DNA from: Chiloscyllium plagiosum
Taxonomy: Eukaryota
Direction of reading: 5' to 3'
Length of the DNA: 64,000 nt
NCBI RefSeq assembly: GCF_004010195.1
Contig: NC_057719.1
Coordinates: 9,395,804-9,459,803, forward strand
Part shown: one piece after another, positions 20,840-63,804 of the stretch
Layout of the letters: each line of letters starts with the position of its first letter
Position numbering within the stretch: position 1 is the stretch's first letter
Translations under genes and position numbers: made by a program
The notes under the pieces: generated by a model
What the model was told of the DNA's origin: nothing
Database searches by the model: none
Seen by the model: the letters and a program-made list of their open reading frames with translations, nothing else

Positions 20840-21107
20840 ATCATACAATCCATAGAATCAAAGCATACTGTGGAAACAGGCCCTTCGGCCCAACAAATCC
20901 ACACCGACCCGCTGAAGAGTAACCCACCCAGACCATTACTCTACATTTACCCCTTACTATTGCGGAGAAAGTGAGGTCTGCAGATGCTGGAGATCAGAGA
21001 TGGAAATGTGGACCTGCTGCGCTTTTCCAGCAACACATTTCCATCCCTTACTATTGCACCTAACCCACACACCCTTGAAACCTATGGGCACTTTTAGCAT
21101 GGCCAAT
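20840..21107 (-). mobile_element. HE1 SINE 3' part, interrupted by a PLE-derived insert
   Basis: HE1 3' sequence resumes after the duplicated cccttactattgc. Confidence 0.8.
20964..21044 (-). mobile_element. PLE pLTR-derived short insertion (family A) with inverted end and 13-bp TSD
   Basis: TSD cccttactattgc at 20951-20963 and 21045-21057; atggaaatgtg...cacatttccat fold-back. Confidence 0.85.
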
Positions 21108-21409
21108 GTGTGTACATTGCTGTGTGTCTGGAGTCACATGTGCAGCAGACCAGGTGTGGATGGCAGATTTCCTTCCCTGGAGGACGTTAGTGTCCCAGTT
21201 GGGTTTTTCTGCCAATTGGCAATGGTTTAATGGTCTTCAAGAGAAGGAGCAGCCAATACAGGAGAGGGGTGTACCACCTGACAGAATGAAATGCACGGGT
21301 GTGTAAGTAAAGGGAGTTTTGCAGAACCCAATCGGAATCACTCTGAGGCAGAGGCAGCATCCAGTTGCCAGAGAGACGTCCAAATAGGACCAAATGTTGT
21401 AATGCAAAG

Positions 21410-22280
21410 AATTGAGGGGTGACTTTATAGAGATTTATAGAATCATGAGGGGCATGGATAGGAGTTGGGAGGTCATGTTGCAGCTGTACAGGATGTTGGT
21501 TCAGCCACTTTTGGAGAATTGCGTGCAAATCTGCTCTCCCTCCTATAGGAAGGATATTGTGAAATTTGAAGGAGTTTCAGAAAAGATTTACAAGGATGTT
21601 GCTGGGGTTGGAGGATTTGAGCTATAAGGAGAGGCTGAAAAGGCTGGGGCTATTTTCCCTGGAGCATCGGAGGCTGAAGGATGACCTCAGTTTATAAAAT
21701 CATGAGAGGCATGGATAGGGTGAACAGACAAAGTCTTTTCCCTGGGCTGGGGGAGTCCAGAACTAGAGGGCATAGCTTTAAAGTGAAAGGGAAAAGAGTT
21801 AGCAGGGAGCTAAGGAGCAACGTTTTCATACAGAGGAATGGTGCGCATATGAAATGAGTTGCCAGAGGAACTGGTACAGTAACAATGTTTAAAAGGCATC
21901 TTGATGGGCATTTGAATAGAAAGGGGTTAGAGGGATATGGGCCAAAAGTTGGCACATGGGACTAGATTTATTTCGGATATCTGGTCGGCTTGGCCGAGTT
22001 GGACCAAAAGGTCTGTTTCTGTGCTGTACGTTGCTAAAACCCTCCGACCCTGCACACCAAAGTCTAAATTGCGAATATATATTGGGAAAAGCTGCTAGAG
22101 GAAGTGGAGGAGGCTGGTACAATTATAACATTTACAAAAATATCTGGATGGGTATATGAATAAGAAGGCTGTATGGGATATGGGCCAAGTGCTGGAAAAT
22201 GGGACTAGGTCAGATTTGGATGTGTGGTCGGCATGGACGAATTGAACCGAAGGGACTCTTTCTATGCTGTACAGTTCTCT
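21410..22280 (+). mobile_element. Two adjacent CR1 3' fragments (about 21410-22030 and 22090-22280)
   Basis: LYRMLVQPLLENCVQ..., FFIQR, and two 3' UTRs. Confidence 0.85.
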
Positions 22281-22871
22281 GACATACGCCTGGAAATCTT
22301 CACTTCAAAACCTTCCTCCAACACAAAGGATGTCCATTAACTATTCTGTTTCCTGTCACACATGCAATTCTGTATCCATGTTGATATTTTCCTTTTTATT
22401 CCTTGAGCTATAACTTTGCTCATAGGCACTGTATCAAAAACATTCTACATTTATACATCATCTGTACACCTCATCCACGACACTGCCCTCAACAATTCTA
22501 CCTGTTACCTCTTCAAAAAGCTCCAGCGAGTTTGTTAAACATAATTTTCCCTTATGTTGGCTTTTCTGCCCAAAATCACACTTGTCCTTGGGACTTCTAA
22601 TTTCGTCACAAACAGTTATTTATCTTGCAGTTTCTCCACCCCCAGGAAGTTAGGTCTACCAGCCTGTAGTTACTGCCATCATTATCAATCCCACAACATT
22701 GCCATCATTTTCTGACTAATCTAAGTGACTGGCAGCATCAGATAACTTGGACATCAGTATTCCTGCCATTATTACCAATATTCCTGGTGCCTGTGGAACT
22801 GCACTGCCAGGTGTGATAGGATTTCAGGGTAGGAGCATGTGACAGGGACTAAGGTGAGAACCACTTAAATA

Positions 22872-23330
22872 ACATACATACACACGCAGATACAAGTATG
22901 TGCGCATGCACACACTCACCCCACACACAGACCAGACATGCGTGCACACACAGACACATGCACACATGTACACACACACTCTTTCTCACACACTAGTACA
23001 CACATACACACAGATGTACACATGCACATAGACAAACACATACACACATACAGATGTGAATGCACACACGCACAGACACATGCATTGACACACAGAAAGA
23101 GATACACACATATGCACACCCATATGTATACATAGACACAGTCAAACACATACATAGGCATATATGCAGACAGCAGGCACAGACAAAGAGTGATGCATGT
23201 GTAAGCAGATATGTACAGAGATATATAGATGCAGACATACACACATTCACACATAAAGCCATATCGATGCACTTACACGCACCAACTCATAAATACGTAC
23301 AAGACACACACTTTTTCTCTCTCAGACACA
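22872..23330. repeat. Degenerate (CA)n/(TA)n low-complexity tract
   Basis: Alternating purine-pyrimidine sequence such as acacacagacacatgcacacatgta. Confidence 0.95.
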
Positions 23331-24346
23331 CAATTATAACAAACAGAACATTAATCTATGGCCAATGAAAGGTAAGGAGAATGAAATTAGTGTAAATGAA
23401 GAGCTATTAAAGAGCCAGCATCAGCAGAGAGATAAATGGTCTCTACAATGTAATTACAGTGACTACAGAAACAGAGGGAGAAATTTCCTCTTTCTGTGAC
23501 GAAATTATTTCTGCCTGTTGAGTCTGCATTATTTCCAAGAGAAACCTAGTTAGTCACTTTGCTCCCACCTCATCCCTGATTGCATCTTCTGTATAAATAG
23601 GTCAGCCACGTTTGGAATTACACAGCAGTGGAACAAGTGGACCATTCGGCCCCTTAAGCCTGTGCTGGTATTTATGCTGTTCTTGCGCCTCCTCCCATCA
23701 TGCTCTTGTGTCACAGTGGCAGTATCCTACATCTAGGCTAGAAGATCTTGGTTAAAATCCAACTTACTCAGAGATTGTCATAACACTAGCAGGACTCTTG
23801 CAGGGGGCTGAGGTTGTTTCCCTACCTCCAAATCGAGAGACCTGGGTTCAAGTCCCACCTGCCCCAGAGGTATGTAATAACAACTCTGACCAGGATGATT
23901 AGAAAAATAGGTGACCTCACGGTAACATCCAAGCATTCACACAGCCCCTCTCAATTTTGATTTTCTGTAGAATGTACAGGGATAAACTCTTGTTACTGTA
24001 CTCAATGCTTCTGACCCCAACCAAGTGATATACTGAAATCTGCGTTTTGGGATTCTCGAGAAGTTCCACTGACGTGAAGCATGCTGTGGGCTTGCTGCCA
24101 TGTGCCTATTTGTTTAATTACAAACTGCTTCCAAACTAATTGAGAATTCAATGTTGTTGTCATGCGGCTCCCCAGGTAATTGAATATGAATTCCAGGTAA
24201 CAATGCCCCTATCACATCAGCTGCCATCAACACAACAGCTTTGTGCCTGATGGTGTAATTACCTGGATTTTCTATTTGCAAGATGCCATCTGCTTTTAGA
24301 GCACAAACCTCAAACTAGAAACAGGATTAGGCCTATCAGTCCCACG

Positions 24347-24495
24347 AGGAGACATTGAGGTCTGCAGATGCTGGAGATCAGAGTTGAGAGTGTGTTGCCG
24401 GAAAAGCACAGCAGGTCAGGCAGCATCCAAGGAGCAGGAAAATTGGCGTTTCGGATAGAGCCCTTCATCCTGCTCCTTGGATGCTGCCTGACCTG
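24347..24495 (-). mobile_element. PLE pLTR-derived insertion (family A) with inverted end and 14-bp TSD
   Basis: TSD ctatcagtcccacg at 24333-24346 and 24496-24509; gcaggtcaggcagcatccaaggagcagga is mirrored by tcctgctccttggatgctgcctgacctgc. Confidence 0.88.
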
Positions 24496-24674
24496 CTATC
24501 AGTCCCACGTGGCTTCTTGCTTATTTGATCAGATGATGGCATAATCTGACTGTGCCCTTACTCTCTTTTCTAATCCTATATCCTTTGCCAACCTTGCCAA
24601 TTTACCCAAATCATACTTAAAAGAGATTGTTTTCCTTTCAGAAATTATTTTCAAGCCAGTGCTGATGCATTTTT

Positions 24675-24982
24675 AGATTAGATTAGATTCCCTACAGTGT
24701 GGAAACAGGCCCTTTGGCCCAACTAGTCCACATTGACCCTCCGACAAGTAACCCACCCAGACCCATTTCCCTCTTGACTTATGCACGTAACACTATGGGC
24801 AATTTAGCATGGCCAATTCACCTGACTTGCACATCTTTAGACTGTGGGAGGAAACCGGAGCACCAGGAGGAAACCCACGTAGACACTGGGAGAATGTGCA
24901 AACTCCACACAGACAGTCGCCCAAGGCTGGAATCAAACCTGGCACCTTGGCGCTGTGCTAACCACTGAGCCACCATGCCACC
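24675..24982 (-). mobile_element. HE1-type V-SINE
   Basis: Head, V core and (aatct)n tail. Confidence 0.9.
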
Positions 24983-25277
24983 CCTTTGTTCCACACTCAA
25001 TGCAATGTCAGTATTTTCTAATCAATCTGCTCAGAGATGGCATTAACATACCTCTGGAGCAACTGGGACTTGAATCTGAGTCACCGAGCTCAGAGGGGCA
25101 CACCAATACTGTACGACAGGGCCCCTCTGTGCCACAAGTGAAGATTACTCAATTATCTGGCCTCCATTGTTCTCTGGGAAGAGAATTCTATAGACAAACA
25201 ACCCTCGAAGAGAGAAAAATTATATCTGTCTTAAAAGGGAGACCCCTATTTTTAAATTGGTTTCCTAGTTTTCTTCG

Positions 25278-25562: not shown

Positions 25563-25579
25563 ACAGCTCCCACTGTACT

Positions 25580-26960: not shown

Positions 26961-28506
26961 TTTTTCAGAACCCAGTTTAGTTTTCAGTTTGTTAAAATGT
27001 TAACTCTGTTTCTCTCTCTCCGCAGATGTTGTCAGATCTGCTGAGTTTCTCCAGATTTTCTGTGTTTGTTTCATGTCTCTTTTTGCATTGTCCTCCCTTC
27101 AGACCTCTAGTGTTCTTTGGAACTGGAATCAAAGGCAGATGCAGTGTTGAGTCTAGCCTCTATGCTCACATAACCTACTCCTTTGCGTTCTGGTATGCTT
27201 TCATCTCCATTTGTCCTCCCATCTCTTCTTTGTCCCCCCACCTCACTAAATGCCTCGTAAGGATAGTGTCTGGAGGCAGAAGAAGTTGAGGAATAACCGA
27301 CTGAATGAGGAATTGGTTGAGTGGATCCAATTCAAAGTACCCAAGCGAGCTTTCTCTATCGATGAAAACCCTTGTGCTCCAATGCAAATTTCTTTGGTAG
27401 AATAAGCGGTTGCTGCAGGAGCAATAATATATTCAGTGAAGAAGCTGAACTGAAATCAAGACATGACGGGCTCCCGTTGCTCTTTCCACTGTTTTCCTCC
27501 TCTTCGCAAGTTATTATCAGCTTTCAATATCCTTGTACTAACAGGTTTGGAATAACAGGGCTAACACTTCAGAAACAGTGGCATAGTTGGCACCAGCAGC
27601 ATTTTGCAAACTTGATCTCCATTTGCAATTACCACTCCTGCCCAGAAGGATGGGGAATGACCCCTTTGCACTTTTTGCTATAAATTCACTGATCTCTTGA
27701 TTTCCATTTAGACTTGAACTGTGATGTGAGTCAGCAGGTACTGCTGATTCATTTTATTTATTGTAAATTAGTAACCGTCTAGTGCAGTGTTTTCTCTCGA
27801 CCTTGCGCTGAGTGGTGGTTTAGGAGGATTCACCAAGATAAAAAATTAAACAAACTGATGTTTTAACTGCTCTGCTGTTGTAATTGAAACAGATTTACAA
27901 GACAATGGCAATCCACCGCTGAAGCTGCTTTGTAATACCAATCAGCGCACAAGCCACTTTTGAATAAGGAACAATGGAAGCTACCAGATAGTTACAAGGC
28001 AGAATTGAGAGGTTAGATCACTTACCTGGAGAATTAATGTCCAGGAGATATTACAAGATTGCAATCCAATGGAGTAATTCACAATGACTCATATATCAGA
28101 GATTGTAAAACTTTAACCTTCACCTGGGGAATATGATGATGAGGATGGTTGTTGAATGTCAAACAAAGATGGTTAGATTACCTCTTAATTGTGACTGTCT
28201 CGCACATAGGAACATAACTCAGTTGTCAGCTCAAACCTGAATGTTTTGTCAGAGTCTTGCTGCACATGGACAAGGGTTGCTTCAGCATCTTAGAAGATGG
28301 GAATAGTGCTAAAGATTGGGCAATTATGAGCAAAAATCCCACTTCTGGTCTTCTGGTAATGGAAAATCTTTGACGAAGCAGCTGAAGATAGTTGGGGGTC
28401 AGAGCCGACAGTGAGCAGCTCCTGCAGTGGACTGAGATCATTGGCATTCAACAACCACTTTGATCTTCCTTTGTGACTCCACCCAGCAGAGAATTTCCAC
28501 AGGCTG

Positions 28507-28665
28507 GAAATGTGTTGCTGGAGAAGCGCAGCAGGTCAGGCAGCATCTAGGGAACAGGAGAATCGACGTTTCGGGCATTAGCCCTTCTTCAGGAATCAGC
28601 CCTTCTCCAGCAACACATTTCCATCTCTGATCTCCAGCATCTGCAGACCTCATTTTCTCTTCAAA
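28507..28665 (+). mobile_element. PLE pLTR-derived insertion (family A) with inverted arm carrying a hammerhead core; 15-bp TSD
   Basis: TSD aatttccacaggctg at 28492-28506 and 28666-28680; gaaatgtgttgctggagaag / cttctccagcaacacatttc inverted arms; core on minus at 28561-28596. Confidence 0.9.
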
Positions 28666-28842
28666 AATTTCCACAGGCTGCCCTTGCATACTCAGAAACA
28701 ATGGATTGCTGGGATAAGTTACACACACAATTTACTTGAAGGGTTCAGAAAATTTCTACACACTTAATAATGGACATTTGAAAGGAGATTACAGGGTGCA
28801 AATGATTAACAGATGTTCAGAAAATGGGAATGGAGAAAGACA

Positions 28843-35167: not shown

Positions 35168-35231
35168 ACCCATGCTTTGGGATGTTTGTTAGCCCCCTAG
35201 GGGTGTAGACATGACCTTTAATCTGTGAATA

Positions 35232-35362
35232 GGAGACGGTGAGGACTGCAGATACTGGCAAGTCAGAGTCAAAAAGTGTGGCACCCGAAAAGCACAACAG
35301 GTCAGGCAGCATCCGAGGAGCAAGAGACTTGACGTTTTGGGTATAAGTCCTTCATCAGGGAT
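35232..35362 (-). mobile_element. PLE pLTR-derived short element (family A)
   Basis: gtgaggactgcagatactgg...gtcaggcagcatccgagg...ccttcatcagg; degenerate hammerhead core. Confidence 0.8.
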
Positions 35363-35613
35363 GCCGATTAGTAATCATTCAGATTACAGTGGTGTTTGTA
35401 TGTGTTGCAAGTAAACATGATATTTTCACCTTGTTGGGAAGTCAATGCCAGAAGTCAACAGTATAAGATAGTTAACAATTATTCCAACAGGGCAGTCAAG
35501 AGAAAACTCTTTCCCTTGAGAGTGAAAAGTGCTTCCACAAGGTGTCATGGATCACTTTGATGCATGTAAAGTGAAGCTGAATGAGGGAGTACAGAATTGA
35601 AGGATATGCTGAT

Positions 35614-36700: not shown

Positions 36701-36788
36701 GACAGCAGTCGGCCATTCAATTGCTCAAGCCTGCTCTAAAAAAGCAAAGATCATTACAGCACAGGAACAGGCCCTTTGGCCCTCCAAG

Positions 36789-36912
36789 ACAAAAGTGAGG
36801 ACTGCAGATGCTGGAAATCAGAGTTTAGATTAGAGTGGTGCTGGAAAAGCACAGCAGGTCAGGCAGCATCCGAGGAGCAGGAAAATCGACGTTTCGGGCA
36901 AAAGCCCTTCAA
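36789..36912 (-). mobile_element. PLE pLTR-derived short element (family A)
   Basis: aaagtgaggactgcagatgctgg...gacgtttcgggcaaaagcccttca; flanked by cctccaag / cctctaag. Confidence 0.85.
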
Positions 36913-37958: not shown

Positions 37959-38610
37959 GGAGAAAGTGAGGTCTGCAGATGCTGGAGATCAAAGTTGAAA
38001 CTTTATTGCTGGAACAGCACAGCAGGTCAGGCAGCATCCAGGGAACAGGAGATTCGACGTTTCGGGCACAGGCCCTTCTTCAGGAATGAGCAGAGAGTGT
38101 TCAGCAGGAGAAGATAAAAGGTAGGGAGGAGGGACTTGGAGGAGGGGCGTTGGAAATGTGATAGGTGGAAAGAGGTCAAGGTGAGGGTGATAGGTCGGAG
38201 TAGGATGGAGGCGGAGAGGTCAAGAAGAAGACTGCAGGTCAGGAAGGCGGTGCCGGGCTGGAGGGATCCGGCTAAGACAAGGTGGGGGGAGGGGGGATGA
38301 AGAAACTGGTGAAGTCCAAGTTCATCCCCTGCGGTTGGAGGGTTCCCAGTCGGAAGATAAGACGCTCCTCCTCCGACCGTCGGGTTGTTGTGGTTTGGCG
38401 GTGGATGAGTCCAATGACCTGCATATCCTCGGTGGAGTGGGAGGGGGAGTTGAAATGCTGTGCTCCAGGTTGGTTGGGTTGGTTCGTCCGGGTGGCCCAG
38501 AGGTGCTCTCTGAATCGCTCCGCAAGTAGGCGGCCTGTCTCTCCCTCTATATTGGGGAGACAGGCCGCCTACTTGCGGAGCGATTCAGAGAGCACCTCTG
38601 GGCCACCCGC
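37959..38610 (-). mobile_element. Penelope-like element 3' end: GIY-YIG endonuclease C-terminus, 3' pLTR with hammerhead, inverted 5' end
   Basis: Minus frame from 38541 reads ETGRLLAERFREHLWATRTNQPNQPGAQHFNSPSHSTEDMQVIGL...EEERLIFRLGTLQPQGMNLDF; the inverted piece on + reads LYIGETGRLLAERFREHLWATR. Confidence 0.92.
38052..38087 (-). ncRNA. Minimal type I hammerhead ribozyme motif (PLE family A)
   Basis: Minus strand: AUUC CUGAAGA A GGGC CUGU GCCC GAAA C GUC GAAU; stem I AUUC/GAAU and stem II GGGC/GCCC pair perfectly. Confidence 0.8.
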
Positions 38611-39224
38611 AACAGGGAAAGGACCCCTCCCCCACTGAGTGTCAGAGTTGAACCTTACAACTCTCCATTGTAAAGGTTGAGAATTAGGACATGGGGATGT
38701 TTGTCAAGCAAACAGTGAACACTTGTTTCGGTCACGAGATTGTTGCCATTAATGGATGGGATGCAAATGGATGGTCAAGACACTGGAAACTTTCAATGGA
38801 AAAGCAACAGATAAAAGACTTTTAGATGGTAGACTTGGGACTCTTAGTAAACTTCCTTTTATTCAAACTAATTCGCCCTACTTTTTTTTATTGTGGTCAT
38901 AGCTTTACTCAGCAAAGCAGTAGTACAATGAAGTCTCAACGTTAATGGCAAGAACTGCATGGACATTGGAAAATTGTACCACCACTCAAGCATTTCCCTT
39001 TGCAATTAATGAGGTAATTGGTACCACTTCACATAGATATAGTCTGCCAATAGTAATTTCATATAAATATACATTTTGGGATAAATGGAGCCATGATTTG
39101 GATCTCTAACACATCGGAGCACTGGTTGACATTGGCCCCTTGTATGGGACAGAATCAGTCTGACCATTGTGCCACAGACAGTCTCACACAGGGAAGCTCA
39201 CACCTTCAATACATTATCTGGGCC

Positions 39225-39561
39225 AACATGACACCAATTGTTAAAGTTCACTTGAGAACGTAACTTTCAAAAAGGTTTTGCAATTTACATATGAAAGAAC
39301 TGAAACTGACATGGTCATTCTAACAGATGAGAGACTTAATAAACAATCCAGGTCTTTTTCAATATATAATTTCAGTTGCATCACACTGTAAACTTTTACT
39401 ATAAATTCTGTGTCTTACAATGTTATACTCCACAACCATCTGATGAAGGAGCAGCGCTCCGAAAGCTAGTGCTTCCAATTAAACCTGTTGGACTATAACC
39501 TGGTGTTGTGTGGTTTTTAACTTTGTACACCCCAGTCCAACACCGGCATCTCCAAATTATG
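39225..39561 (+). mobile_element. PLE pLTR-derived element (family B)
   Basis: Ends ttaactttgtacaccccagtccaacaccggcatctcc, like the copies at 39651 and 52469; contains a hammerhead core. Confidence 0.75.
39437..39471 (+). ncRNA. Minimal type I hammerhead ribozyme motif (family B)
   Basis: CAU CUGAUGA A GGAGC AGC GCUCC GAAA GC UA GUG; 5-bp stem II, stem I CAU/GUG. Confidence 0.75.
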
Positions 39562-39650
39562 GGAAAGGAGTCTTCTTACAGTTCAGCTGTTAATTGGCAG
39601 TGGCTGTGAACCACCTCAATCTCGATCAAAATGGCTCCTAATCAGTACAG

Positions 39651-39959
39651 AGTTAAAAATCACACAACACCAGGTTATAGTCCAACAGCTTTATTTGAAA
39701 GTACAAGTTTTTAGATTTCTAAGTGATTAAAGACTGAACAGCAATCTAGGTTTGTTCAATACATCGCATCAGTTGTATGACACTTTGATCTTTTACTATA
39801 AATTCTCTGTGTCCTCTGTGATCCTGCCCCACTAACTACCTGATAAAGGAGCAGTGCTCTGAAAGCTTGTAATTTCAAATAAAGCTGTTGGACTATAACC
39901 TGGTGTGGTGTGATTTTTAACTTTATCCACCCTAGTCCAGCACCAGTATTTCCACATCA
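39651..39959 (+). mobile_element. PLE-derived element (family B) with inverted 5' arm
   Basis: 39651-39707 is the reverse complement of about 39866-39922; taatcag flanks both sides (39639-39645, 39960-39966). Confidence 0.78.
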
Positions 39960-40119
39960 TAATCAGAAACATGAAATGGCCTTTTGATTCAACAACTTCA
40001 CAGAAACCCCACATCAGTAGTTGATGCGACGGGTGAAACGTATCACACTGCCTTCCTCCTCAACTTCAGGTTAAGATGTTAAAACAGGGAGTAAGATGTT
40101 CCAATTTTCACTTTACCCA

Positions 40120-44480: not shown

Positions 44481-44619
44481 ACTATTTGAAACAAAATCCT
44501 TCACATGAGGTTCCAGACCCTTGCTAAGGAGCCCCAGGGTGCACTGACTGCTATTCAGTACTTCCCACACCAATAATTCAACAGTGAATCTGAGTGAACA
44601 GGCAGCTGAGCGTCAATAG

Positions 44620-44791
44620 GTTGACAGGCAGGAGGATGGAAGAACACAGCAAGCCAGGCAGCATCAGGAGGTGGAGAAGTCAATGTTTCGGGTGGAACCC
44701 TCTCCACCTCCTGATGCTGCCTGGCTTGCTGTGTTCTCCAAGCCTGCTATTTGTCGACCTTGGATTCTAGCAACTGCAGCTTTTTTGTCTC
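44620..44791 (+). mobile_element. PLE pLTR-derived fold-back insertion (family C)
   Basis: agaacacagcaagccaggcagcatcaggaggtggaga is mirrored by tctccacctcctgatgctgcctggcttgctgtgttct; flanks gagcgtcaatag / gagcttcaacag (10/12 match). Confidence 0.78.
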
Positions 44792-47508: not shown

Positions 47509-48439
47509 CTGGGGAAGAAATCAGGCAGAGACACCGGAATATCGAAATTTGAGTAAACAGGGATGATGCTTAATGCGCAATGAGATATGATTTTTAAAAC
47601 AGACCAGGGTTGCTGGGTAATGTATGCTCTGAGTGCACATTCCCTTGAAGAGTTATATTCATAAGCAGTGACCTCTTGGTGTCTACAGTTTTCATTATCT
47701 ACAATGAAAGCTGATGCTTGGTAATGCAGAGCAAATTACATTCTCAATCCTGTCACATAGATGCAATCAAGTCTTTGCAAGATGCCAAGAGGCGGTCTCT
47801 TTGGGAGGGGGAGCTGGGAAGGGTGGGGTGTCAGTTGTCAATATCTGCCAGGCTCATTACTATAATTTTGGAGCTGAGTTCACCGTCACAAAAGAGGACG
47901 CATTAACAATACGATGGTGCAATGTTCAGAATTGCACCATTTGAGTGGCCCTCTTTATCTCTCACACAGACGCTCGCTCTCTTCAAAATCAAAATTCTAT
48001 TCATGTAAGTCACTCCCCGGATTGTGGCTGGTGAGAGGGAAGAGAAAAGACAAGAGATAATGATTCATAATTACAAGTAATAGCAGCCAAAGTGAGGAAC
48101 AAGCGAATTAAATTGCAGCCTGCTCCCATCGGACCCACAGTGAGGGGTCACAGCAAGTCAGTTGGAGCTTCCCAAATGCCTTTGATCAAACTCCTTTGTG
48201 ATACAGCTTCAGATTCTAGTCATCCTGGCTGGAAACGAGGAAGGAAGGGGGGGAGGGAGACAACAAAATTAAACGTGCTGTTTGCTTCTTAACTGGCGCC
48301 GATTCAACAGAAGAAGATGAAAGCTTATCGAGGAACATTTAGGAATGTAGAGTTGAGGTTAAAATCAGATCAGCCGTGATCTGATTGAATGGTGAAGCTG
48401 GCTTTAAGGGCTGAGTGGCCTGCTCCTGTTCCTTGCCAA

Positions 48440-49015
48440 AGACAAGAAATGCTGGAGGTGACAGCAAGTCAGACAGTATTCATGGAAAGAGAGCAAGCTA
48501 ATGTTTCCGAATCTAGATGACACTTTGTCAGAGCTGATGTGAAGTGTGGAGGGGACAACGCTTATGCAATTGTGCGGGGGGGGGATGGGGGGAGTGGAGG
48601 GAACCTGGTGGGGGTGGATGGAGTGCTAGCGGAAGAAAGGATGTTGATAATTTGGATTAAGTGATTGGAATGTGAGTCAAAGATCCAAAGATGTGCTGGT
48701 CATGGGTACGGAAATGGGTCTGCGTGTGTTACTCTTCAGAGGGTCAGTGTTAGATTTGTTTGGCCAAACGGCCTGTTTCCACACTGCAGGGAATCTAATC
48801 AATGGTGTGTCTAACTGTCAGACTGAAAAGGACAGTAACTGGGATGAGGTGAGAAGAGAGGGGAATGGTGACAGAGAGTGTAACAAAAGAAGTGAAAAGG
48901 GAGGGAAGGAACTTGAGTGGGTTCATAATTTGAAGGTCTTGAATTCAATACGAAGTCCAGAAAGTTGTAAGGTGCCTTGTCTGAAGGTGAGATGTTGTTC
49001 TTCTAGTTTGTGTGT
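48440..49015 (-). mobile_element. Old PLE 3' end, interrupted by an HE1 fragment (about 48676-48800)
   Basis: Minus frame KLEEQHLTFRQGTLQLSGLRIEFKTF; downstream sequence matches 61620-61700 and 62030-62180. Confidence 0.75.
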
Positions 49016-51662: not shown

Positions 51663-52468
51663 CTTTAACAGAGAGGTGAAAACAAGTAATGGGTTTGGAT
51701 TTATTGGGTGGGTGGGGACTGACCATAATAGCAGCTGGGCTCGAGATGCTGTGACCATGGGCAGGGTTCAAAAGGGATGGATGACCTTCAAGGGTGGGGT
51801 GCTCCCAATGCACCCACGGGACACTCAAAAGAAACTCCCTCCCCTGTAGCTGCCTGCCTGACACCAGCCGGTGCATTCAAAGCTTTCTACATGATGTCAG
51901 CATCCCCTTTGAGGGGGTGGTAAAATAGCATCGGTGTTGAAGACCTTCACTGGCCAATTGGCTACTTCAGTGTCTCAAAAGACCCACGTCCCCATTTTCC
52001 TTAATGTTTGAGATAAATGGATTTCCCACGAGAAGGCCATATTTTGAATTATATGTGACTCCACCCTACTCACCTCCCTCAACCACCACCTGAAACCCAC
52101 TGGCAGGAGAACATAAAGTTCAGTTTATGACCAATTTGCTTCAAGTTTTCTTTAATTTATGTTTTCATTTTCAAAACAAAATTGCTGCAGATCCCTGATC
52201 CTTCCATCATTTCTCTGGAAGAGAGTGAGCAGACTCACTCGACGGATGGGGGCAAATCACCCCTCCTCCAGAAGTTGTTTGTCATCTTTGGTGTCCCTCT
52301 GCCTTATGAATTCACTTGTGGAAGGATTAGGAGGACACAGATTTAAAACGGTGACATGAGGAAAACGTGACATGAGGAAAAGTCAATGTCTCACAGTGGG
52401 ATAGTTAAAGCTTGAAATGTGCTGCCAGAGAGTGTGGTGGAGTCAAGGCCCATTGATGCATTCAATAG

Positions 52469-52800
52469 ACAAAGTTAAAAATCACACAACACCAGGTGAT
52501 AGTCCAACAGGTTTATTTGGAAGCACTAGCTGTCGGAGCGCTTCTCCTGCATCAGGTGGTTGTGGAGCAGGACCTTAAGACACAGAATTTATAGCAAAAG
52601 GTTACAGCAAAATCTTTATAGCAAAACCTTTTACTATAAATTATGTGTCTTATGATCCTGCTCCACAACCCCCTGATGAAGAAACAGTGCTCCGAAGGCC
52701 AGTGCTTCCAAATAAACCTGTTGGATTATAACCTGGTGTTGTGTGATTTTTAACTTTGTACACCCCAGTCCAACACCGGCTTGTCCACATCATGACTACC
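52469..52800 (+). mobile_element. PLE-derived palindromic insertion (family B)
   Basis: Arms 52469-52603 and 52625-52759, each with a decayed hammerhead; flanks ttcaatagacaa / ttcaatacacaa. Confidence 0.85.
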
Positions 52801-53419
52801 TTCAATACACAACTTAATGTTATCTCATTAGTTATTTGCATCAGAGAAGAGAGGAGAATGGCACAGGGTGAAGTTCTAAGTCGGAGGGCAGGCACAGATA
52901 ATGGGCTGAATGGCCTGCGTTGGCAGCAGCTTGACATTAACTAACATAAAGAGAAGCTTACACCAGTTGGGGGCTCATCACACTTCTCAGAGATCACCAA
53001 ATGCCTCTGAAATCCAAACAAATTCAAACAGTTACTTTTGGCAAGGTATGAGGCCATCAGTCAGTTTATCTGTTTTTTGTCAGTATTAATTAAAGAGTGT
53101 CAGGGGATTCACTGGGTAAGCAGACAGGGCCTGGATTTAGAAATGACTCAGGAACAATGCTGTAGATCCACTGAGTACAGTGGCATAGGGGTGTACTGAT
53201 ACAGTTCTCTGGAGGGGAGGAGTCATCAGCAAAGTGCCAAAAGGCACATTGTCCCCAAAAATGTAAATCGGCAACAGCAGCGTGGCAACTGGCATTGTGT
53301 GAAACTTTGGTCTCCTTATCTCAAGAAGGAGGTTCTGCTTATGGAAGGTGTGCAACAAAAGGTTTACCAGTCTTGGGATGACAGGACTGATGTATGAGCA
53401 GTGACTGGATCAGTTAGGA

Positions 53420-54085: not shown

Positions 54086-54116
54086 ATTTTAAATCTCTCT
54101 TCTCAATTTAAAAATG

Positions 54117-54265
54117 AGCCCAGCGGTCGTGGAGGGAGCGGCCATGTGGCTGGTGGCATCTGAGCAGTTCTCCTGCTTCTCCGTTGCTTGCCTGACCTGC
54201 TGTGCTTTTCCAGCACCACACTTTCAACTCTGAACTCCAGCATCTGCAGTCCTCAACTTTTCTGC
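54117..54265 (+). mobile_element. PLE-derived insertion (family A) with an inverted ORF-like scrap at its 5' end
   Basis: TSD ttaaaaatg at 54108-54116 and 54266-54274; pLTR tail ...gcatctgcagtcctc; 5' piece is reverse of ggccgctccctccacgac (RSL.D, compare 60823). Confidence 0.72.
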
Positions 54266-55075
54266 TTAAAAATGTACCCCCTAGTCTTGGAAACCCCCCA
54301 CCCTAGGGAAAAGACAACTACCATTAACCCTATCTATATTTTACATTATTTTAAAAACCTCTGAAAGGTCACCCCTCAACCTCCTACACTCCACTGAAAA
54401 AAGTCTCAAACTATCCAGCCTTTCTTTACAACCCAGCAACATCCTGTCACCAAATCTCTTTAGTTTAATAGTATCCTTCCTCTTACTGGGTGACCAAAAC
54501 TGGACACAGTACTCCAGAAGACATCTCACCAATGTCCTGTACAACAAACTCAATGTGACTTCCCAACAACTATACTCAAAGGACTGAGCAATGAAGGCAA
54601 ATGTTCAAAATGCCTTTTTAGCCACCCTGTCTACCTGTGATGCTAAAATTATGTATCTGAACCCCTAGGTCGCTCAGTTCTACAACTTTACCCAAGGCGT
54701 TACCATTAATTGTGTAAGTCCTACTACCCCATTTTGTACCAATATGCAATACCTCGCATTCATCCAGATTGAACTCCATCTGCCATTTTTCAGTCCATTG
54801 ACCCATTTGATCAAGATCCCTTTGAAATCTTTGAAAATCTTCTGCATTCTCTACTGTTTCCTCAATGTGGGTGTCACCTGCAAACTTACTAACCATGTCT
54901 TCTACATTCTCTTCCAAATAATTTACATCAATGACAAAGAAAAGAGGACCCAGAAACGATCCGTGTGGCACACCACTGGTCACAGGCTTCCAGTCTGAAA
55001 AGCAACCTTCCACCACCGCTCTCTGTCACCTGCCATTAAGCCAGTAACGTATCCAATCGGCAAGTTCACCCCGAA
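54266..55075 (-). mobile_element. CR1 ORF2 RT fragment
   Basis: ORFs 54618..55016 (PHGSFLGPLFF..SKFAGDT) and 54341..54553. Confidence 0.9.
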
Positions 55076-58802: not shown

Positions 58803-58885
58803 ATAAAAGGAATTAATTAACCTTTTTTTAATGACAATTGATCGTTCTCATGGTTACTGTTACCGAGACTATGTTTTAACTCAGT

Positions 58886-59082
58886 GAAAGTGAGGACTGC
58901 AGATGCTGGAGATTAGAGTCAAGAGTGTGGTGCTGGAAAAGTACAGCAGAGCAGAAGAGAATTGACATTTTGGCCAAAGGCCCTTCATCATTCCTGATGA
59001 AGGGCTTTTGCCCGAAACATCGATTCTCCTGCTCCTTGGATGCTGCCTGACCTGCTGTGCTTTTCCAGCACCACACTCTTGA
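58886..59082. mobile_element. PLE-derived palindromic insertion (family A) centred on the hammerhead core
   Basis: Centre cccttcatca-ttcc-tgatgaaggg (58981-59004); core on + at 58990-59025: CTGATGA A GGGC TTTT GCCC GAAA CATC. Confidence 0.87.
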
Positions 59083-61316
59083 TTTTAATTACTTGAAGTT
59101 AAACCCTAACAGCTGACATTCCGAGATTTGAACCACATCCTCCCAGGCCTCTGAAGTACTAGTACCAATGACATTTGCCGCTACAGCACCATCTCATCTC
59201 GTTGTGTTTAAGTACTTATTGTCCACCTTTGATGACCCTGAGAAGCTGGGGACACAACTGTGTTGACACTTTGCTGAAAGCTAGAGAAACCTGCTCCGAC
59301 CCACCACCATTTACAACCCGCCAACGTCAATCAATCCAACATTCAGGCTTTTCTCTATTCATTGTTGGAGCCATGACATGCCAGTGGTACCCTTGAGTAT
59401 CTCAGCAAATGCCTACCGTTCACACATAAACGAGCATCACAAGGACTCATTGTCCTGTCAATTGCAGAAGCATTGCAGTCAATTGCCACTCAACTTTCAC
59501 CCTTTCGGGTATGGGTTCCTGGATAATGATCTGGAGCTGGAGCATGGCTTTATTCATTGTCCTAGGATCAAGAGATTAATTGCAGAGCTCTCTTAGAGCT
59601 GTCAGAAGCTGACTGAGTTTAAATTGCATAGGCTGGATTTTGGAGCATTTCCTTTCCTCTGAGAGAAAATAAGCAAACAACTCTGGCCTCAGCAAGGATT
59701 TGACACAATGCTTCTGAATCTGCAAACCCAGGAAAGGTAAGTGACCATTAATTCTAATCAAGTCGAGTGTAGCACAAAATTCACAGGCTTTAGAAATAGC
59801 TAGGCTGGTGAAGTACAACAGAATGCATCAAATAATGTCTCTCAGCTTTTATATAATGTTGGCTTTCTAAGACATGATCATGATATCACATCATAGCCTA
59901 TGACCTATTTGTGTAAAGATCCTGGTTTTCATTTTACTGAGGCCACTTACAAAATGATACACTTGAGGGAAATGTGCAACAGATTGGAACCAAATTACAC
60001 CATGCTAGCCCAGACACAATGGTGACTGGGATTGTACATATGTAGGTACATGGAGCTGTAGTGAACATCTATATCAGTCCTTCAATATCACTGTTTAGTT
60101 CTTTTGTTACAGGAGCCAACGTAAGTATTATTTTATCAGCTACACTTTCCCTTCTGAAGGTAAAAACCCACTGCACCACAGCAGACCACAACAGCAGAAC
60201 AGATCAGAGTACAGGAGAAATTCAGAGTTGCAGTAATTTCTTTTTGCTCCAGAAATTTATTCTAAAGCATCAGCTATTAATGTAAAGTGTTACAAATTCA
60301 ACTCAAGAGAACATAATTATGACAGCAGAAGAACGTCAGATTTTAAATTGCAGTGTCGACAAATATGGTTTCATTAGGCAAAAAGTTTGATTCAGCTGCA
60401 GCTCACTTCCTTAGACATGATGCAGCTGTATTCTGTCCTATTGTTGAATGACGCCAGTCTCTTGCAGATTAAAACAGGATGTGCTTCTGCCTCCTAACTC
60501 CTACAACCCTGAATGAAACAGTAAACGGTAGGGAAATCGTGCTGTGGCAATGTCACCAGACCACCAGTCCAAGACCAATGCACCGGGGGTATATGTTCAA
60601 TTCAGGTGGAAACTGGTGGGTAGATTCAGTTAACAAATCTCATACATTATAAAGCTTGCTTCAGTAATTGTGCAGTGATTGGGTTTTTATCCAGGTGGTG
60701 GTGCAATGGCGGTAACTCTAATTCTGGGCTGAAGGATCTGGGTTCAAACCCTACCTGTTCTGGAAAAATGTGTTTGAAAAGGTTGGTTTCAAAGAAAGAC
60801 AGCAGAGTTCTGACTTCGCAGGGATCGTTCCCTTCGGGACACCACAGTCCATTCCACAACCATCAACACCAACCCCCCTTTCACACGGCACCTTCCTATG
60901 TAAGGTGCAAACCTTCACCTCCTCCATGCTCACCATCCAAGGGCCTGAACAGTCTTTCCAGGTGAAGCAGCATTTCACCTGTTCCTCCTCGAATCCTGCA
61001 CCAGAGCGGCCGACTCTACATTGGAGAAACCAAACGCAGAATGGGTGGCCGCTTTGCAGAACACCTCAAGTCTGTGTGCAAGTAGGGCCAGACCTTCTCG
61101 TGTATGGTTATTTCCACACAGTGTCCTGCTCACATACCCACGTGTCTGTCCTTGGCATGCTGCAATATTCCTGTGAAACACAGCGCTAACTGGAAGAACA
61201 ACATCTCATCTTCAGACTAGGCACTTTCCAACCTTCTGGGCTCAATATTGAGTTCAACATCTTCAAACTGTGAATCCATTCCTTCCCTTTCTTTCAGCTT
61301 TGCTTGTTACATTCAC

Positions 61317-61454
61317 CAGGCAAAAGTGAGGATTGCAGATGCTGGAAACCAGAGTTTAGATCAGAGCGCTGCTGGAAAAGCACAACAGGTCAGGCAGCAT
61401 CCGAGGAGCAGGAAAATCGACGTTTCGGGCAAAAACCCTTCATCAGGAATAGAG
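61317..61454 (-). mobile_element. PLE pLTR-derived insertion (family A) with intact hammerhead core and 11-bp TSD
   Basis: TSD gttacattcac at 61306-61316 and 61455-61465; minus 61450-61415: ATTC CTGATGA A GGGT TTTT GCCC GAAAC GTC GATT. Confidence 0.9.
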
Positions 61455-61714
61455 GTTACATTCACTGTCACCATGTCCTCTTTCGTCTTCCCCCACCCCA
61501 CTGGGACTGTCTACTCTTCCCATTCTAGAGTAGACAGGCAGGAGGCTGGAAGAAAACAGCAAGCCAGGTAGCATCAGGGGGTGAAGTCAATGTTTTGGAT
61601 GTAACCCCTCTTCAGGCTAGTCTGGCAGTTAGACACACCATTCTTCTGCCATTCTCACATTCCCATCACCTAATCTGAACTATCAACATCCTTTCTCCCT
61701 TTTCAGAGGTGGTT

Positions 61715-62020
61715 CTGATTAGGTTCCCTACAGCGCGGAAACAGACCCTTCGGCCCAACTAGTCCACACCGACCCTCCGAAGTGTAAACCACCCAGACCC
61801 ATTCACCTACTCTCTACTAATGCACCTATCACTATGAGCAATTTAGCATGACCAATTCACCTGACCTGCACATCTTTGGACCGTGGGAGGAAACCGGAGC
61901 ACCTGAAGGAAACCCACGCAGACACGGGAAGAATGTGCAAACTCCACGCACACAGTTGCCCAAGGCTGGAATTGACCCCGGGTCCCTGGCACTGCGAGGC
62001 AACAGTGCTAACCACTGTGC
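61715..62020 (-). mobile_element. HE1-type V-SINE
   Basis: Head, V core and tail on the minus strand. Confidence 0.9.
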
Positions 62021-62547
62021 TGCCCCACCCTCAGCACTTGACCCCCCCAACCCCAACCCCTCATTATTGCACAAATGCTGTCCCCTCCACACTTCATCAG
62101 TTCTGAACACATCATCTACAGCTAGCTCTCTCTCCACAGATGCTGCCTGACCCGCTGTGATCGTTAGCATTTTCCTTTTCATTAGTAAAGTTCTTTCCTA
62201 GCAGGATGTGAGCATCTGAGTGGGGTAAGGACACAGAAGGGAAAGGTTGAAGTTAAAGTTTGTTCTGAATTACAGATTTACAACAAAATAAATTTGTAAA
62301 TCACTGATAGCTTTTTCTCACCTGTTTCAATGTATGGAAATCAGTGTGTGAAACAGTAGGGTCAGTAATGCAGAGGATGTAAACTCAATAATCAAATAAA
62401 GAAATGAAGAATACTGGAAACTCTTCCTTTTTCTTATGCAGCAAATTGTTGTGATCTGGAATACCCTGGCTGGAAGGATAGTGGAAACAAGTTCAATTGT
62501 AGTTTGCAGGAGAGAACTAAATATAAACATGAAGAGAGAAAAAAATA

Positions 62548-62720
62548 CAGAGGAACCTCGATTATCCGGCAGTCGATTAACCGAATTTCGGATTATCCGA
62601 ACAAGATCGCAAGGTCCTGATGCGTGGCTAACTATGTTGTCCAGCATTGATTATCCGGCATTCAATTAACCGAGCAAAATACTCCTGGACTGTCTCCTGT
62701 GGAGAATCGAGGTTCCTCTG
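62548..62720. mobile_element. Tigger/pogo-like (Tc1/mariner superfamily) MITE, 173 bp
   Basis: TIRs cagaggaacctcgattatcc / ggagaatcgaggttcctctg, flanked by TA at 62546-62547 and 62721-62722. Confidence 0.88.
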
Positions 62721-63626
62721 TATAATCACTGGCTACGCAGGAGGGAGAGAGAAGTGGAACTAATTGCATGTGGATCCATGAGAGTCTGATTGTCCTCCGA
62801 AAGCTACACAATTCTATGATTCTGTAAGAAAGACTTGTAAATGTCCTATTTTTGTGGTAAAACAGGGGAGATTTTTGTTGGATCAATTGAGGATTTTCAA
62901 GGATATGGAAGATTTTGAGAATTATGCAAAAAAATGAAAGCTTGCTGGCTAATACATAACATTCAGGATTAGCCCGGATTATCATTAGAAGCAGCAAAGA
63001 GATTTTTTTATTTTAAAAAATGGTCATTAATGCATGTAATACCTTCCCACAAGCAACTCTTAAGGGAAAGACTGTCAAAGATTATAACAAAATTTAAAAT
63101 TGTATTTGACATACACAAAAAGATACATTGCAAAGGGCAGCTAAATTGGATTAGAATAGATAGCACAGATAAAGAGTTAATGCTAGTGATGAGGCTGAAT
63201 GGTCCCGTCGTGTGTTCTGATCTCTGTAATTCTACCATTGTTTCTGGTGAACTAGGTAACAAACAGGTCTTCACATCTGGTTTGTTAAACCTACTGCTTC
63301 TACAAGCAGATCCAACACTCTCGGTGACAAAAGTAATTGACAATTCCTTTGCCAAATGCCAAAGGAAGAACGCTGCTGAGTGCAGAGATGTCCAACGCGC
63401 CACTTCCTCAATAAGACATGAAACAGAGGTTTTTTCACAAGCTAAAATTTCTGTCTGAGATCAGTTGCAGTGTCCCAGTGAAGTCTAATGCAAGCTGCAG
63501 CAATAGTACCTCATTTTCCAACACTGAGTTCAAGAACTTCAGATCAGAACCTATTTTGCATCAATATCTCTCCTTTACTTTCATTATAAATCCCTTTGTC
63601 TTTTGCTCTGGACACCCTTACCATCT

Positions 63627-63804
63627 AGATTACAGTGGTGCTGGAAAAGCACAGCAGGTCAGGCAGCATCCGAGGAGCAGGAAAATCCTGATTCCTGATG
63701 AAGGGCCTTTGCCCGAAGTGTTGATTTTCCTGCTCCTCGGACGCTGCCTGACCTGCTGCGTTTTTCCAGCACCACTCTAATCTTGACTCTGATCTCCAGC
63801 ATCT
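63627..63804 (+). mobile_element. PLE-derived fold-back insertion (family A)
   Basis: agtggtgctggaaaagcacagcaggtcaggcagc...aggaaaatc mirrored around a decayed core (ctgatgaagggcctttgcccgaag). Confidence 0.85.

What the first reader, a model, noticed from the sequence alone, without database searches (positions are those of the whole stretch)
20951..63804. Window-wide population of short hammerhead-bearing Penelope-derived insertions, most with TSDs
Seen: at least three sequence families of mostly 80-340 bp. Family A is at 20964, 24347, 28507, 35232, 36789, 37959, 54117, 58886, 61317 and 63627; family B at 39225, 39651 and 52469; family C at 44620 and about 61525. Families A and B carry CUGANGA-A-stem II-GAAA-(C/GC)-NUH with different stem II sequences that still pair (GGGC/GCCC versus GGAGC/GCUCC), which looks like covariation. 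Several copies have exact TSDs of 13, 14, 15, 11 and 9 bp. The family A copy at 37959 is physically continuous with a GIY-YIG ORF. Established: PLE pseudo-LTRs carry minimal type I hammerheads with a vestigial stem III, thought to act as dimers. Inference: these are either extremely 5'-truncated PLE insertions or a non-autonomous ribozyme-bearing SINE/retrozyme-like class moved by PLE machinery, at roughly one copy per 4-5 kb here.
Basis: partly seen in the sequence, partly recalled or inferred. Interest (0 to 1): 0.72.

Follow-up and report, generated by a model that had tools for sequence, protein, structure and literature searches.

The report
Truncated Penelope retroelement ends, shark genome
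These short repeats are the clipped ends of Penelope-like jumping genes, each carrying a tiny hammerhead ribozyme motif, scattered densely through a shark-type genome; the pattern is mostly already described, but one family's end is also used as a poly(A) site, which may hint at how these elements copy themselves.

Summary
All are 3' ends (pLTR) of Penelope-like elements (PLEs). Two run into GIY-YIG coding remnants; the best relatives are bamboo-shark proteins with the Neptune-type linker. Only 4 loci keep an intact minimal hammerhead; stems covary between families, but copies decay like neutral DNA. No tandem retrozyme units or SINE head were found. The scan reported this pattern before on other pieces of the same genome (four notes). 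Two leads remain. Eight of nine family-A arms that reach the hammerhead stop at its 5' edge. Raw RNA reads from one sample show poly(A) added 28-30 nt after family B's predicted cut site, upstream of both element ends. Together these fit, but do not show, 'strong-stop'-like cDNAs started at the 5' pLTR of PLE mRNAs. Verdict: new members of a known kind; interest 0.33.

The parts
20951..21057 (-). Family A inverted pair: tail-bearing arm 20964-21010 (-), short arm 21011-21044 (+), 13-bp TSD; no hammerhead left
24333..24509 (-). Family A inverted pair: long arm 24347-24467 (-) starting inside the hammerhead core, 30-nt inverted arm (+), 14-bp TSD
26985..27074 (+). Family D decayed 3' end (extra locus), no TSD above chance
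28492..28680 (+). Family A inverted pair: tail-less arm 28507-28598 (-) with intact hammerhead (C3 at 28592), tail-bearing arm 28599-28665 (+), 15-bp TSD
35231..35364 (-). Family A single arm, CpG-decayed hammerhead, no TSD above chance
36788..36911 (-). Family A single arm starting inside the hammerhead core; possible 8-9 bp imperfect TSD seen by eye, not above chance
37959..38610 (-). Longest family A insertion: tail, intact hammerhead (C3 at 38083, predicted cut after 38056), pyrimidine-rich 3' UTR, GIY-YIG C-terminal remnant, inverted arm 38545-38610 (+) duplicating 56 nt of ORF
38275..38544 (-). 90-codon remnant of a PLE GIY-YIG endonuclease; 77-81% identical to two Chiloscyllium punctatum proteins, one of which has RT, thumb, CX4CxxC linker and CCHH motif
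39143..39564 (+). Family B single arm 39151-39558, intact hammerhead (C3 at 39440, predicted cut after 39468), 7-bp TSD
39478..39518 (+). Family B poly(A) module: hexamer at 39478-39483 (ATTAAA here, AATAAA in the other 4 of 5 arms), poly(A) addition in family reads behind 39495 and 39498, GU-rich stretch 39502-39518
   Evidence: (table 7)
39639..39966 (+). Family B inverted pair: tail-less arm 39646-39716 (-), tail-bearing arm 39717-39959 (+) with compensatory stem I variant, 7-bp TSD
41441..41560 (-). Family D 3' end with the 3' half of a decayed hammerhead (extra locus)
44618..44791 (+). Family C inverted pair: short arm 44618-44700 (-) with stem II and 3' half of the hammerhead, long arm 44701-44791 (+); imperfect TSD not above chance
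48431..48830 (-). Family E decayed PLE 3' region, same family as 60800-62190 (extra locus)
52461..52812 (+). Family B inverted pair: 135-nt arms, both with mutated hammerhead cores, 17-nt filler at the centre, 12-bp TSD with 1 mismatch
54108..54274 (+). Family A arm 54168-54263 preceded by a 51-nt piece of unknown origin, inside a 9-bp TSD
58886..59089 (-). Family A inverted pair, both arms starting at the 5' edge of the hammerhead
60800..62190 (+). Older, decayed family E PLE: linker and GIY-YIG remnant 60814-61264, 3' UTR and decayed end near 62095-62190; hosts nested insertions
61306..61465 (-). Family A single arm 61317-61454, intact hammerhead (C3 at 61446), 11-bp TSD; nested in the family E 3' UTR
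61525..61622 (-). Family C single arm with CpG-decayed hammerhead; nested in the family E 3' UTR
63624..63804 (+). Family A inverted pair: left arm (-) begins at the predicted cut site (+1 or +2), right arm (+) begins at -35/-36 and lacks part of the tail
63866..63958 (+). Family D decayed 3' end (extra locus)

Best explanation
The loci are dead-on-arrival insertions of several endonuclease-positive PLE families in a carpet-shark-like genome; A and E are of the Neptune/Nematis type and the clade of B is not determined. The element's GIY-YIG/RT protein cuts both target strands with a stagger, which gives TSDs of 7-15 bp. It primes reverse transcription at two preferred sites in its RNA about 30-40 nt apart, the two ends of the 'tail', downstream of the hammerhead. 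cDNAs usually end within about 30-140 nt. When both target ends are primed, two short cDNAs are joined head-to-head, giving a fold-back insertion with the tail on one arm; otherwise a single arm results. The minimal type I hammerhead is under selection in the active parent elements (core fixed, stems covarying between families) but is a passenger in the inserted copies, which decay and, in inverted pairs, bury it in a long hairpin. Shown here: anatomy, end positions, ORF continuity, decay. Taken from published work on other PLEs: two-strand cutting and two internal start sites. Inferred: that inverted pairs come from priming at both target ends.
For: 3' ends fall in two classes. In family A the long arms end at +93 to +103 from the predicted cut and 4 of 6 inverted arms at +60 to +68; in family B at +92 versus +58/+60. 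Contigs of a DNA run of the same organism repeat this for B: loose ends at 39521/39524 (306+355 contigs) and 39557/39561 (1158+588). 9 of 15 loci are inverted pairs, 7 of 9 with a tail-less arm, as described in PMC3846280 and PMC8557442 (passages). PMC11167929 shows both strands cut and extended from two adjacent internal sites that delimit the tail. Arms of one insertion are 87-100% identical and share subfamily marks. ORF continuity at 37959 and 60.8 kb; depth continues into the ORF at 7-16% of peak in DNA contigs and 2-5% in RNA reads. Core versus flank among copies is not different when pooled, and CpG positions are 21-31% mutated. The 8 inverted pairs folded give z of -2 to -23, the 4 single arms z of +0.5 to -2.6.
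Against: 5' ends are not spread as random truncation predicts: 8 of the 9 family-A arms that reach -23 stop between -24 and -36 (P about 0.0004-0.0009 for any 17-nt window holding 8 of 15 under a constant stop rate), so something special happens at the hammerhead's 5' edge. After removing an alignment slip the family-A core is better kept than the flanks (2 of 81 versus 70 of 664, P=0.016), although subfamily divergence in active parents would also give this. No RT-coding sequence of these families is in the window, and family B is linked to no ORF here. 7 of 15 loci lack a TSD above chance. The inverted pairs could also arise by self-priming, as proposed in PMC3846280.
Confidence: 0.78

Rival explanations
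1. Strong-stop variant (a refinement of the best explanation, not exclusive of it). The PLE mRNA starts just upstream of the hammerhead in the 5' pLTR and is polyadenylated just downstream of the hammerhead in the 3' pLTR. The only complete RT loading and start site is then near the mRNA's 5' end. cDNA begun there runs off the RNA after 100-135 nt and is integrated as a solo pLTR. Long copies need a template jump through the repeated region, or a read-through or circular RNA.
For: Wall of 5' ends at -24 to -36 in family A, 7 of 8 fixed by a junction or flanking duplication. For B, 374 DNA contigs have loose 5' ends at 39440 (C3) with mixed flanks, and depth steps down 4.5-fold upstream of the hammerhead, then plateaus. 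Poly(A) ends at +27/+30 in B (628+831 reads), upstream of both element ends. PMC11167929: the RNA needs ORF sequence downstream of the start sites, which inserted 3' ends lack. PMC2377424: transcription starts in the pLTR and no mechanism for pLTR regeneration is known. A frame beginning at an ATG about 20 nt after the cut stays open through the tail in 37959, 24347 and 28507, like the ORF start inside pLTR and tail in PMC3846280.
Against: No transcription start site was mapped. The 5' wall comes mainly from family A and the poly(A) site from family B; none of the 5 B arms in the window starts in the -24 to -36 zone. Family A depth in DNA contigs falls only from 3.6M to 2.9M across that zone. 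1 of 12 A arms has a poly(A) hexamer. The putative N-terminal peptide matched 0 of 71 longer homologs and is interrupted in 61317, 36789, 35232 and 54117. The depth steps are confounded by subfamily divergence upstream of the hammerhead.
Confidence: 0.2
2. Independent non-autonomous class (SINE- or retrozyme-like): short master copies are transcribed, cleave as dimers and are mobilised in trans by PLE protein.
For: Short copies dominate (14 of the 18 sized loci are under 200 bp) and share a 5' boundary. A few head-to-tail joints of 127-129 nt units exist in DNA contigs (39557 to 39431, 2 contigs; 38087 to 37959). bioRxiv 2026.07.22.740005 finds retrozymes in its one chondrichthyan genome and derives them from pLTRs.
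Against: No tandem hammerhead unit among the 8 tandem rows in the window. Cleaved or circular templates predict 5' ends at the cut site, but only 1 of 15 A arms starts at +1/+2 and 2 more within +6. Copies end at the tail and lack the downstream ORF sequence required for loading in the Anolis element. The same module is continuous with ORFs.
Confidence: 0.08
3. Host-selected dispersed ribozymes or hairpin regulators: the copies are kept because they cleave or regulate host transcripts.
For: 4 loci keep an intact motif. Family reads are present in RNA and sense-biased (1388 versus 247 over the B hammerhead bin). Family B supplies a working poly(A) site somewhere in the genome.
Against: Of 11 arms with a full-length motif, 7 carry core or stem breaks. 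Both arms of 52468 have core changes. The monomer hammerhead fold is the lowest-energy fold in only 2 of 4 intact motifs, and co-folding gave the intermolecular stem III in 0 of 4. No peak of read starts or ends anywhere on the stretch (table 6), though this library type is blind to the cut.
Confidence: 0.05

Closest known systems
Insertion units of canonical EN+ Penelope-like elements: pLTR, adjacent inverted 5'-truncated copy, 30-40 bp tail, TSD (PMC3846280; PMC8557442; passages read)
   Same: Head-to-head inverted arm, tail on one end only, TSD of variable length, strong 5' truncation, GIY-YIG ORF upstream of the pLTR.
   Different: Here the units are shrunk to 80-330 bp in most loci and occur every 3.2 kb in this window; a sharp 5' boundary at the hammerhead's edge is not described in the passages read.
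Minimal type I hammerheads of metazoan PLE pLTRs (PMC4209133, first half of text read)
   Same: Core boxes, one bulged base after A9, G10.1-C11.1, palindromic 15.2-16.2 with no loop 3, short stem I; mostly solitary motifs attributed to truncated PLEs.
   Different: That paper counts about 4,000 (coelacanth) and 9,000 (Xenopus) motifs per genome and names no shark in the parts read; 4 intact motifs in 64 kb would, if typical, mean far more (extrapolation from one window).
Poseidon from Anolis carolinensis (PMC11167929, first half of text read)
   Same: Two RT start sites downstream of the hammerhead that delimit the tail; both strands cut and extended; no RNA-seq ends at the hammerhead cut.
   Different: Different clade for family A (Neptune-type linker in its closest relatives); no biochemistry here; a poly(A) site between cut and tail is not mentioned in the parts read.
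Non-LTR retrozymes (PMC7229834 passages; bioRxiv 2026.07.22.740005 parts 1 and 3)
   Same: Short, non-coding, type I hammerhead, pLTR-derived.
   Different: Retrozymes are head-to-tail tandem arrays that give circular RNAs; these loci are solitary or head-to-head.

Membership tests
EN+ Penelope-like element | C-terminal GIY-YIG endonuclease upstream of the pLTR | tested here: met
   38275-38544 matches 8 proteins at E<=1e-6 among 84 candidates; 3 carry precomputed PF01541. Second remnant at 60814-61264. The window fragment alone scores no Pfam family. Not shown for families B, C, D.
EN+ Penelope-like element | Telomerase-like RT in the same ORF | tested here: inconclusive
   No PLE RT remnant in the window (tblastn of 73 proteins); relatives carry RT and thumb domains.
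EN+ Penelope-like element | pLTR with hammerhead motif | tested here: met
EN+ Penelope-like element | Adjacent inverted 5'-truncated copy and 30-40 bp tail on one end | tested here: met
   9 of 15 loci inverted, 7 of 9 with a tail-less arm; two end clusters in DNA contigs.
EN+ Penelope-like element | Target-site duplication of variable length | tested here: met
   8 of 20 loci above chance, 7-15 bp; 12 of 20 not.
Neptune/Nematis clade | CX2-5CxxC linker before the GIY-YIG domain, CCHH motif | tested here: inconclusive
   Present in P0005, 77% identical to the window fragment (definition from PMC8557442). The 37959 copy is truncated downstream of it; the 60.8 kb remnant aligns to that region but is decayed.
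Neptune/Nematis clade | Placement in an RT phylogeny with reference PLEs | not tested
   No RT in the window and no named reference set was fetched.
Minimal type I hammerhead | Core boxes, bulge after A9, G10.1-C11.1, palindromic stem III | tested here: met
   4 intact motifs, 0 in 30 shuffles; tetrads ACGU (A) and AGCU (B) are self-complementary.
Minimal type I hammerhead | Compensatory changes in stems | tested here: met
   Stem II pair 3 G-C (A) to A-U (B); pair 4 C-G (A), U-A (C), G-C (B); stem III C-G to G-C; stem I pair 2 U-A to A-U; within B, stem I pair 3 C-G to U-A. Only three independent families, so no significance test.
Minimal type I hammerhead | Self-cleavage as dimer | not testable with these tools
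   Co-folding did not give the dimeric stem III in 4 of 4; a poly(A)-primed library cannot show the cut.
Non-LTR retrozyme | Two or more consecutive tandem units, each with a complete hammerhead | tested here: not met
   No such array in the window; rare head-to-tail joints exist elsewhere in the genome.
Non-LTR retrozyme | Circular monomer RNA | not testable with these tools
   No suitable library was laid.
SINE | Pol III head derived from tRNA, 5S or 7SL | tested here: not met
   No such Rfam match over any copy at E up to 5; copies begin inside or at the edge of the hammerhead. No separate A/B-box scan was run.

The most novel reading that the evidence does not exclude
Shark PLE pLTRs are laid out like a retroviral R-U5 region: start site just upstream of the hammerhead, poly(A) site just downstream of its cut site, RT start sites further down. 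Most genomic copies would then be integrated 'strong-stop' cDNAs made at the mRNA's 5' end, and full-length copies would need a template jump through the repeated region. That would supply the missing mechanism for pLTR regeneration, and would make the very many family B copies a dispersed source of poly(A) sites in the host genome.
Probability: 0.15. Interest if true: 0.68.

Novelty: new member of a known kind. Interest (0 to 1): 0.33.

Why it matters
As it stands it is an annotation result: shark genomes carry very many short PLE ends that look like microRNA hairpins or small palindromic transposons (the best Rfam hits were sub-threshold microRNA families) and should be labelled as PLE insertions. 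The abundance makes sharks a good system for reading PLE mechanism from genomes: each insertion records two priming sites, a junction and a 5' stop. If the 5' wall marks the RNA's start and the poly(A) site lies upstream of the RT start sites, the open question of how pseudo-LTRs are regenerated (stated as unknown in PMC2377424) becomes directly testable with CAGE, long reads and the existing in vitro assay.

Tried and rejected
No whole genome was available, so no genome-wide copy collection. Rfam gave no hammerhead hit; its microRNA hits are all below gathering and reflect the fold-backs. Three protein searches used a wrong reading frame of the 37959 remnant and are no evidence either way (first protein); the correct frame was searched, but the profile search against cluster representatives could not be repeated. 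The first TSD control was inflated by the tandem array at 30.7-33.7 kb and was redone without such regions. MAFFT alignments across families did not hold the structural register, so pairs were counted from anchored positions (two anchors were off and were corrected; family E could not be registered). In one search two of four family-A core mismatches are an alignment slip; both counts are given. In one search the 5' end of 61317 was entered as -39; it is -36, which makes the test conservative. An ORF start in the pLTR was not confirmed (0 of 71 homolog N-termini). The 51-nt piece at 54117 matched nothing in the window or in 73 proteins. Five candidate host ORFs gave no Pfam family, so no host gene or intron orientation was established. 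RNA run X22 laid 0 reads and is no test; no indexed holder was on record as RNA. Summed contig depth is not a copy number and was used only for relative shape. Simple snap-back copying of the tail-bearing strand was rejected for 6 of 9 pairs, where the tail-less arm holds sequence upstream of the other arm's 5' end.

Full report
Setting. The window is eukaryotic repeat-rich DNA (43% GC, one 829-base gap). The closest named relatives of its PLE coding remnant are Chiloscyllium punctatum proteins at 77-81% identity, so the source is probably a carpet shark (inference). No genome was held; outside evidence comes from one lay of four public runs on 37880-39620, protein searches and papers. Positions written +n or -n count from the predicted hammerhead cut.

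Inventory. Self-BLAST and profile HMMs recover all 15 loci of the finding and five more: 10 of family A, 3 of B, 2 of C, 3 of D, 2 of E, one per 3.2 kb. A, C, D and E cross-match downstream of the hammerhead; B does not match them at DNA level. Of the 18 loci sized, 14 are 81-197 bp and 4 are 314-652 bp. The B copy given as 39225 starts at 39151: a 7-bp TSD brackets 39151-39558, and repeat depth and contig ends begin there.

TSDs. The five exact TSDs of the finding are real (13, 14, 15, 11, 9 bp; 1 of 500 controls reached 9). Three more pass at 0.4-2% of controls. The other 12 of 20 loci do not exceed chance.

Hammerhead. A descriptor for the minimal type I motif finds 4 intact motifs and none in 30 shuffled windows. 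They have the traits listed in PMC4209133 (parts 1-2 of 4 read): a bulged base after A9, G10.1-C11.1, and a palindromic stem III with no loop (ACGU in A, AGCU in B). The 11 core positions are the same in A and B while stems I, II and III change on both sides. Family C has the motif too, CpG-decayed. This indicates selection in the active parents. Among the copies the picture is neutral decay or close to it: non-CpG core mismatches are 4 of 81 in A (2 of 81 after removing an alignment slip) against 70 of 664 in flanks, and 5 of 44 against 22 of 356 in B. Pooled P is 0.62 as aligned and 0.24 corrected; A alone corrected gives P=0.016. Seven of 11 full-length motifs carry core or stem breaks. Folding gives the hammerhead monomer as the lowest-energy fold in 2 of 4 intact motifs and the dimeric stem III in 0 of 4; such folding is a weak test. 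Cleavage was not testable. The dimer-cleavage paper PMC5785218 was not held; I saw it only as cited in the review PMC6765202 (passages and section 11 part 2).

Link to autonomous elements. The copy at 37959 runs through a pyrimidine-rich 3' UTR into 90 codons of a GIY-YIG C-terminus. Eight of 84 candidate proteins match at E<=1e-6. P0005 shows RT, thumb, a CX4CxxC linker and the CCHH motif, the Neptune/Nematis architecture in PMC8557442 (passages). A second, older remnant at 60814-61264 belongs to family E, whose 3' UTR hosts the A61317 and C61525 insertions. No RT remnant of these families lies in the window. Laid depth over the A copy falls from the 3' end to 7-16% of peak in the ORF in DNA contigs and to 2-5% in RNA reads, far above the unique flank. 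The short copies are therefore the abundant end of a series that reaches into coding sequence.

Nine of its 15 loci are two arms joined head-to-head with their 3' ends facing out. One arm ends at +92 to +103; in 7 of 9 pairs the other stops 26-43 nt earlier. The exceptions are 24347 (+35) and 37959 (inverted arm ends in the ORF). DNA contigs confirm two end classes for B: +53/+56 (661 contigs) and +89/+93 (1,746 contigs). This is the inverted pLTR plus 'tail' described in PMC3846280 and PMC8557442 (passages). PMC11167929 (parts 1-2 of 4 and passages) explains the tail as the interval between two internal RT start sites, used on both cut strands. Arms within a pair are 87-100% identical and share subfamily marks, so they were copied from one RNA or from sister RNAs at insertion. 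In 6 of 9 pairs the tail-less arm reaches further 5' than the tail-bearing arm, which excludes simple snap-back copying of the latter; a hairpin intermediate trimmed at integration is not excluded. The 8 inverted pairs folded form long hairpins (z -2 to -23) that would bury the hammerhead; 4 single arms do not.

Against an independent class. No tandem hammerhead unit is in the window, which is the definition of a non-LTR retrozyme in bioRxiv 2026.07.22.740005 (parts 1 and 3 of 5 and passages) and PMC7229834 (passages). A few head-to-tail joints of 127-129 nt units occur in DNA contigs, so short dimers exist elsewhere. Only 1 of 15 A arms starts at the cut site. In the Anolis element the RNA needs ORF sequence beyond the start sites; inserted ends lack it and should be dead ends (inference).

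Lead 1, the 5' wall. Of 9 A arms that reach -23, 8 stop between -24 and -36 and one runs to -489. Under a constant stop rate, any 17-nt window holds 8 of 15 ends in 0.04-0.09% of simulations (positions entered by hand). Seven of the 8 are fixed by a junction or a flanking duplication (the one at 36789 is imperfect). For B, 374 contigs have loose 5' ends at C3 with mixed flanks and depth steps down 4.5-fold upstream of the motif. Against this: none of 5 B arms in the window starts in that zone, A depth in DNA contigs drops little there (3.6M to 2.9M), and subfamily divergence confounds both. An earlier scan note (e1-7858714) saw the same clustering on another piece; I had it in my reading before the look-up.

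Lead 2, a poly(A) site in family B. In raw single-cell reads (X21, about 2% of the run read, 6,889 reads laid), 628 and 831 reads carry A-runs behind 39495 and 39498, at +27/+30. The first group begins with a C, so at least two sequence variants use the same site. A hexamer lies 13-15 nt upstream (AATAAA in 4 of 5 arms, ATTAAA in one) and a GU-rich stretch follows; the hexamer and GU-rich pattern as a poly(A) signal is recalled knowledge. Reads are sense-biased (1388 versus 247) and span the hammerhead uncut. Limits: one sample; the sister run X22 laid nothing; reads were recruited at 85% identity from the whole genome, so the number of loci is unknown and could be small; priming on a genomic A-run after a truncated copy is not excluded. 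No A-run was among the listed loose ends for family A (1,916 rows were not shown). I found no description of such a site in paper searches or scan look-ups, and no paper on shark PLE hammerheads surfaced in searches. The library lacks most subscription journals and Repbase, and unseen supplements (alignments of PMC4209133, Fig. S2 of PMC11167929, the chondrichthyan tables of the bioRxiv preprint) may cover these families.

Mechanism. Most likely (0.78): ordinary PLE target-primed insertion with two internal start sites, early termination and frequent two-ended priming; the hammerhead works, if at all, in tandem parent transcripts. The two leads suggest a refinement (0.15-0.2): the mRNA starts near -36 and ends at about +28 of the next pLTR, so the only full RT start module is at its 5' end, and most copies are integrated run-off cDNAs. 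PMC2377424 (passages) places the Penelope start in the pLTR and says pLTR regeneration has no obvious mechanism. The weak point is that the two leads come mainly from different families and no start site was mapped.

Verdict. Observation confirmed with corrections; interpretation partly supported; new members of a known kind, noted four times before in this scan on other pieces of the same genome. Interest 0.33.

Noticed in passing
window 39478-39518 (family B reads): Poly(A) addition 27-30 nt after the predicted hammerhead cut, with hexamer and GU-rich element; family B copies may act as poly(A) sites for host or element transcripts.
   Followed up: partly
window 60800-62190: An older GIY-YIG PLE whose 3' UTR holds two younger PLE ends (61317, 61525) and an abundant short repeat at about 61720-62030; the decayed family C hammerhead lies 170 nt upstream of the intact family A one on the same strand.
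   Followed up: partly
window 54117-54167: 51-nt GC-rich piece of unknown origin inside the 9-bp TSD, 5' of the family A arm; possibly a template switch.
   Followed up: partly
window 52608-52624: 17-nt filler at the centre of the B palindrome repeats neighbouring arm sequence, as in templated end-joining.
   Followed up: no
family A, C, D, E arms, about +20 onward: A reading frame starting at an ATG about 20 nt after the cut gives a similar short peptide in most arms of four families, and the main length difference between A subfamilies is 3 nt; may be the ORF start. Not confirmed by homologs.
   Followed up: partly
window 41560-41582: A CTGAAGA motif on the + strand right beside the family D arm; may be a very short inverted arm.
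   Followed up: no
table 5 (39506, 39517, 39554 to 37958/37959; 38086 to 39557): DNA contigs join family B ends directly to family A ends, suggesting that PLE families insert at or next to each other's ends.
   Followed up: no
window 62545-62723: 23-bp inverted arms 133 nt apart (96% complementary), like a small DNA-transposon remnant.
   Followed up: no
window 30732-33690 and 17940-18546: Minisatellite arrays of 36 bp (83 copies) and 30 bp (20 copies); unrelated to the hammerhead families.
   Followed up: no
window 62973-63458: Overlapping open frames of 150-161 codons on both strands outside the obvious repeats; no Pfam match; possible host exon.
   Followed up: partly
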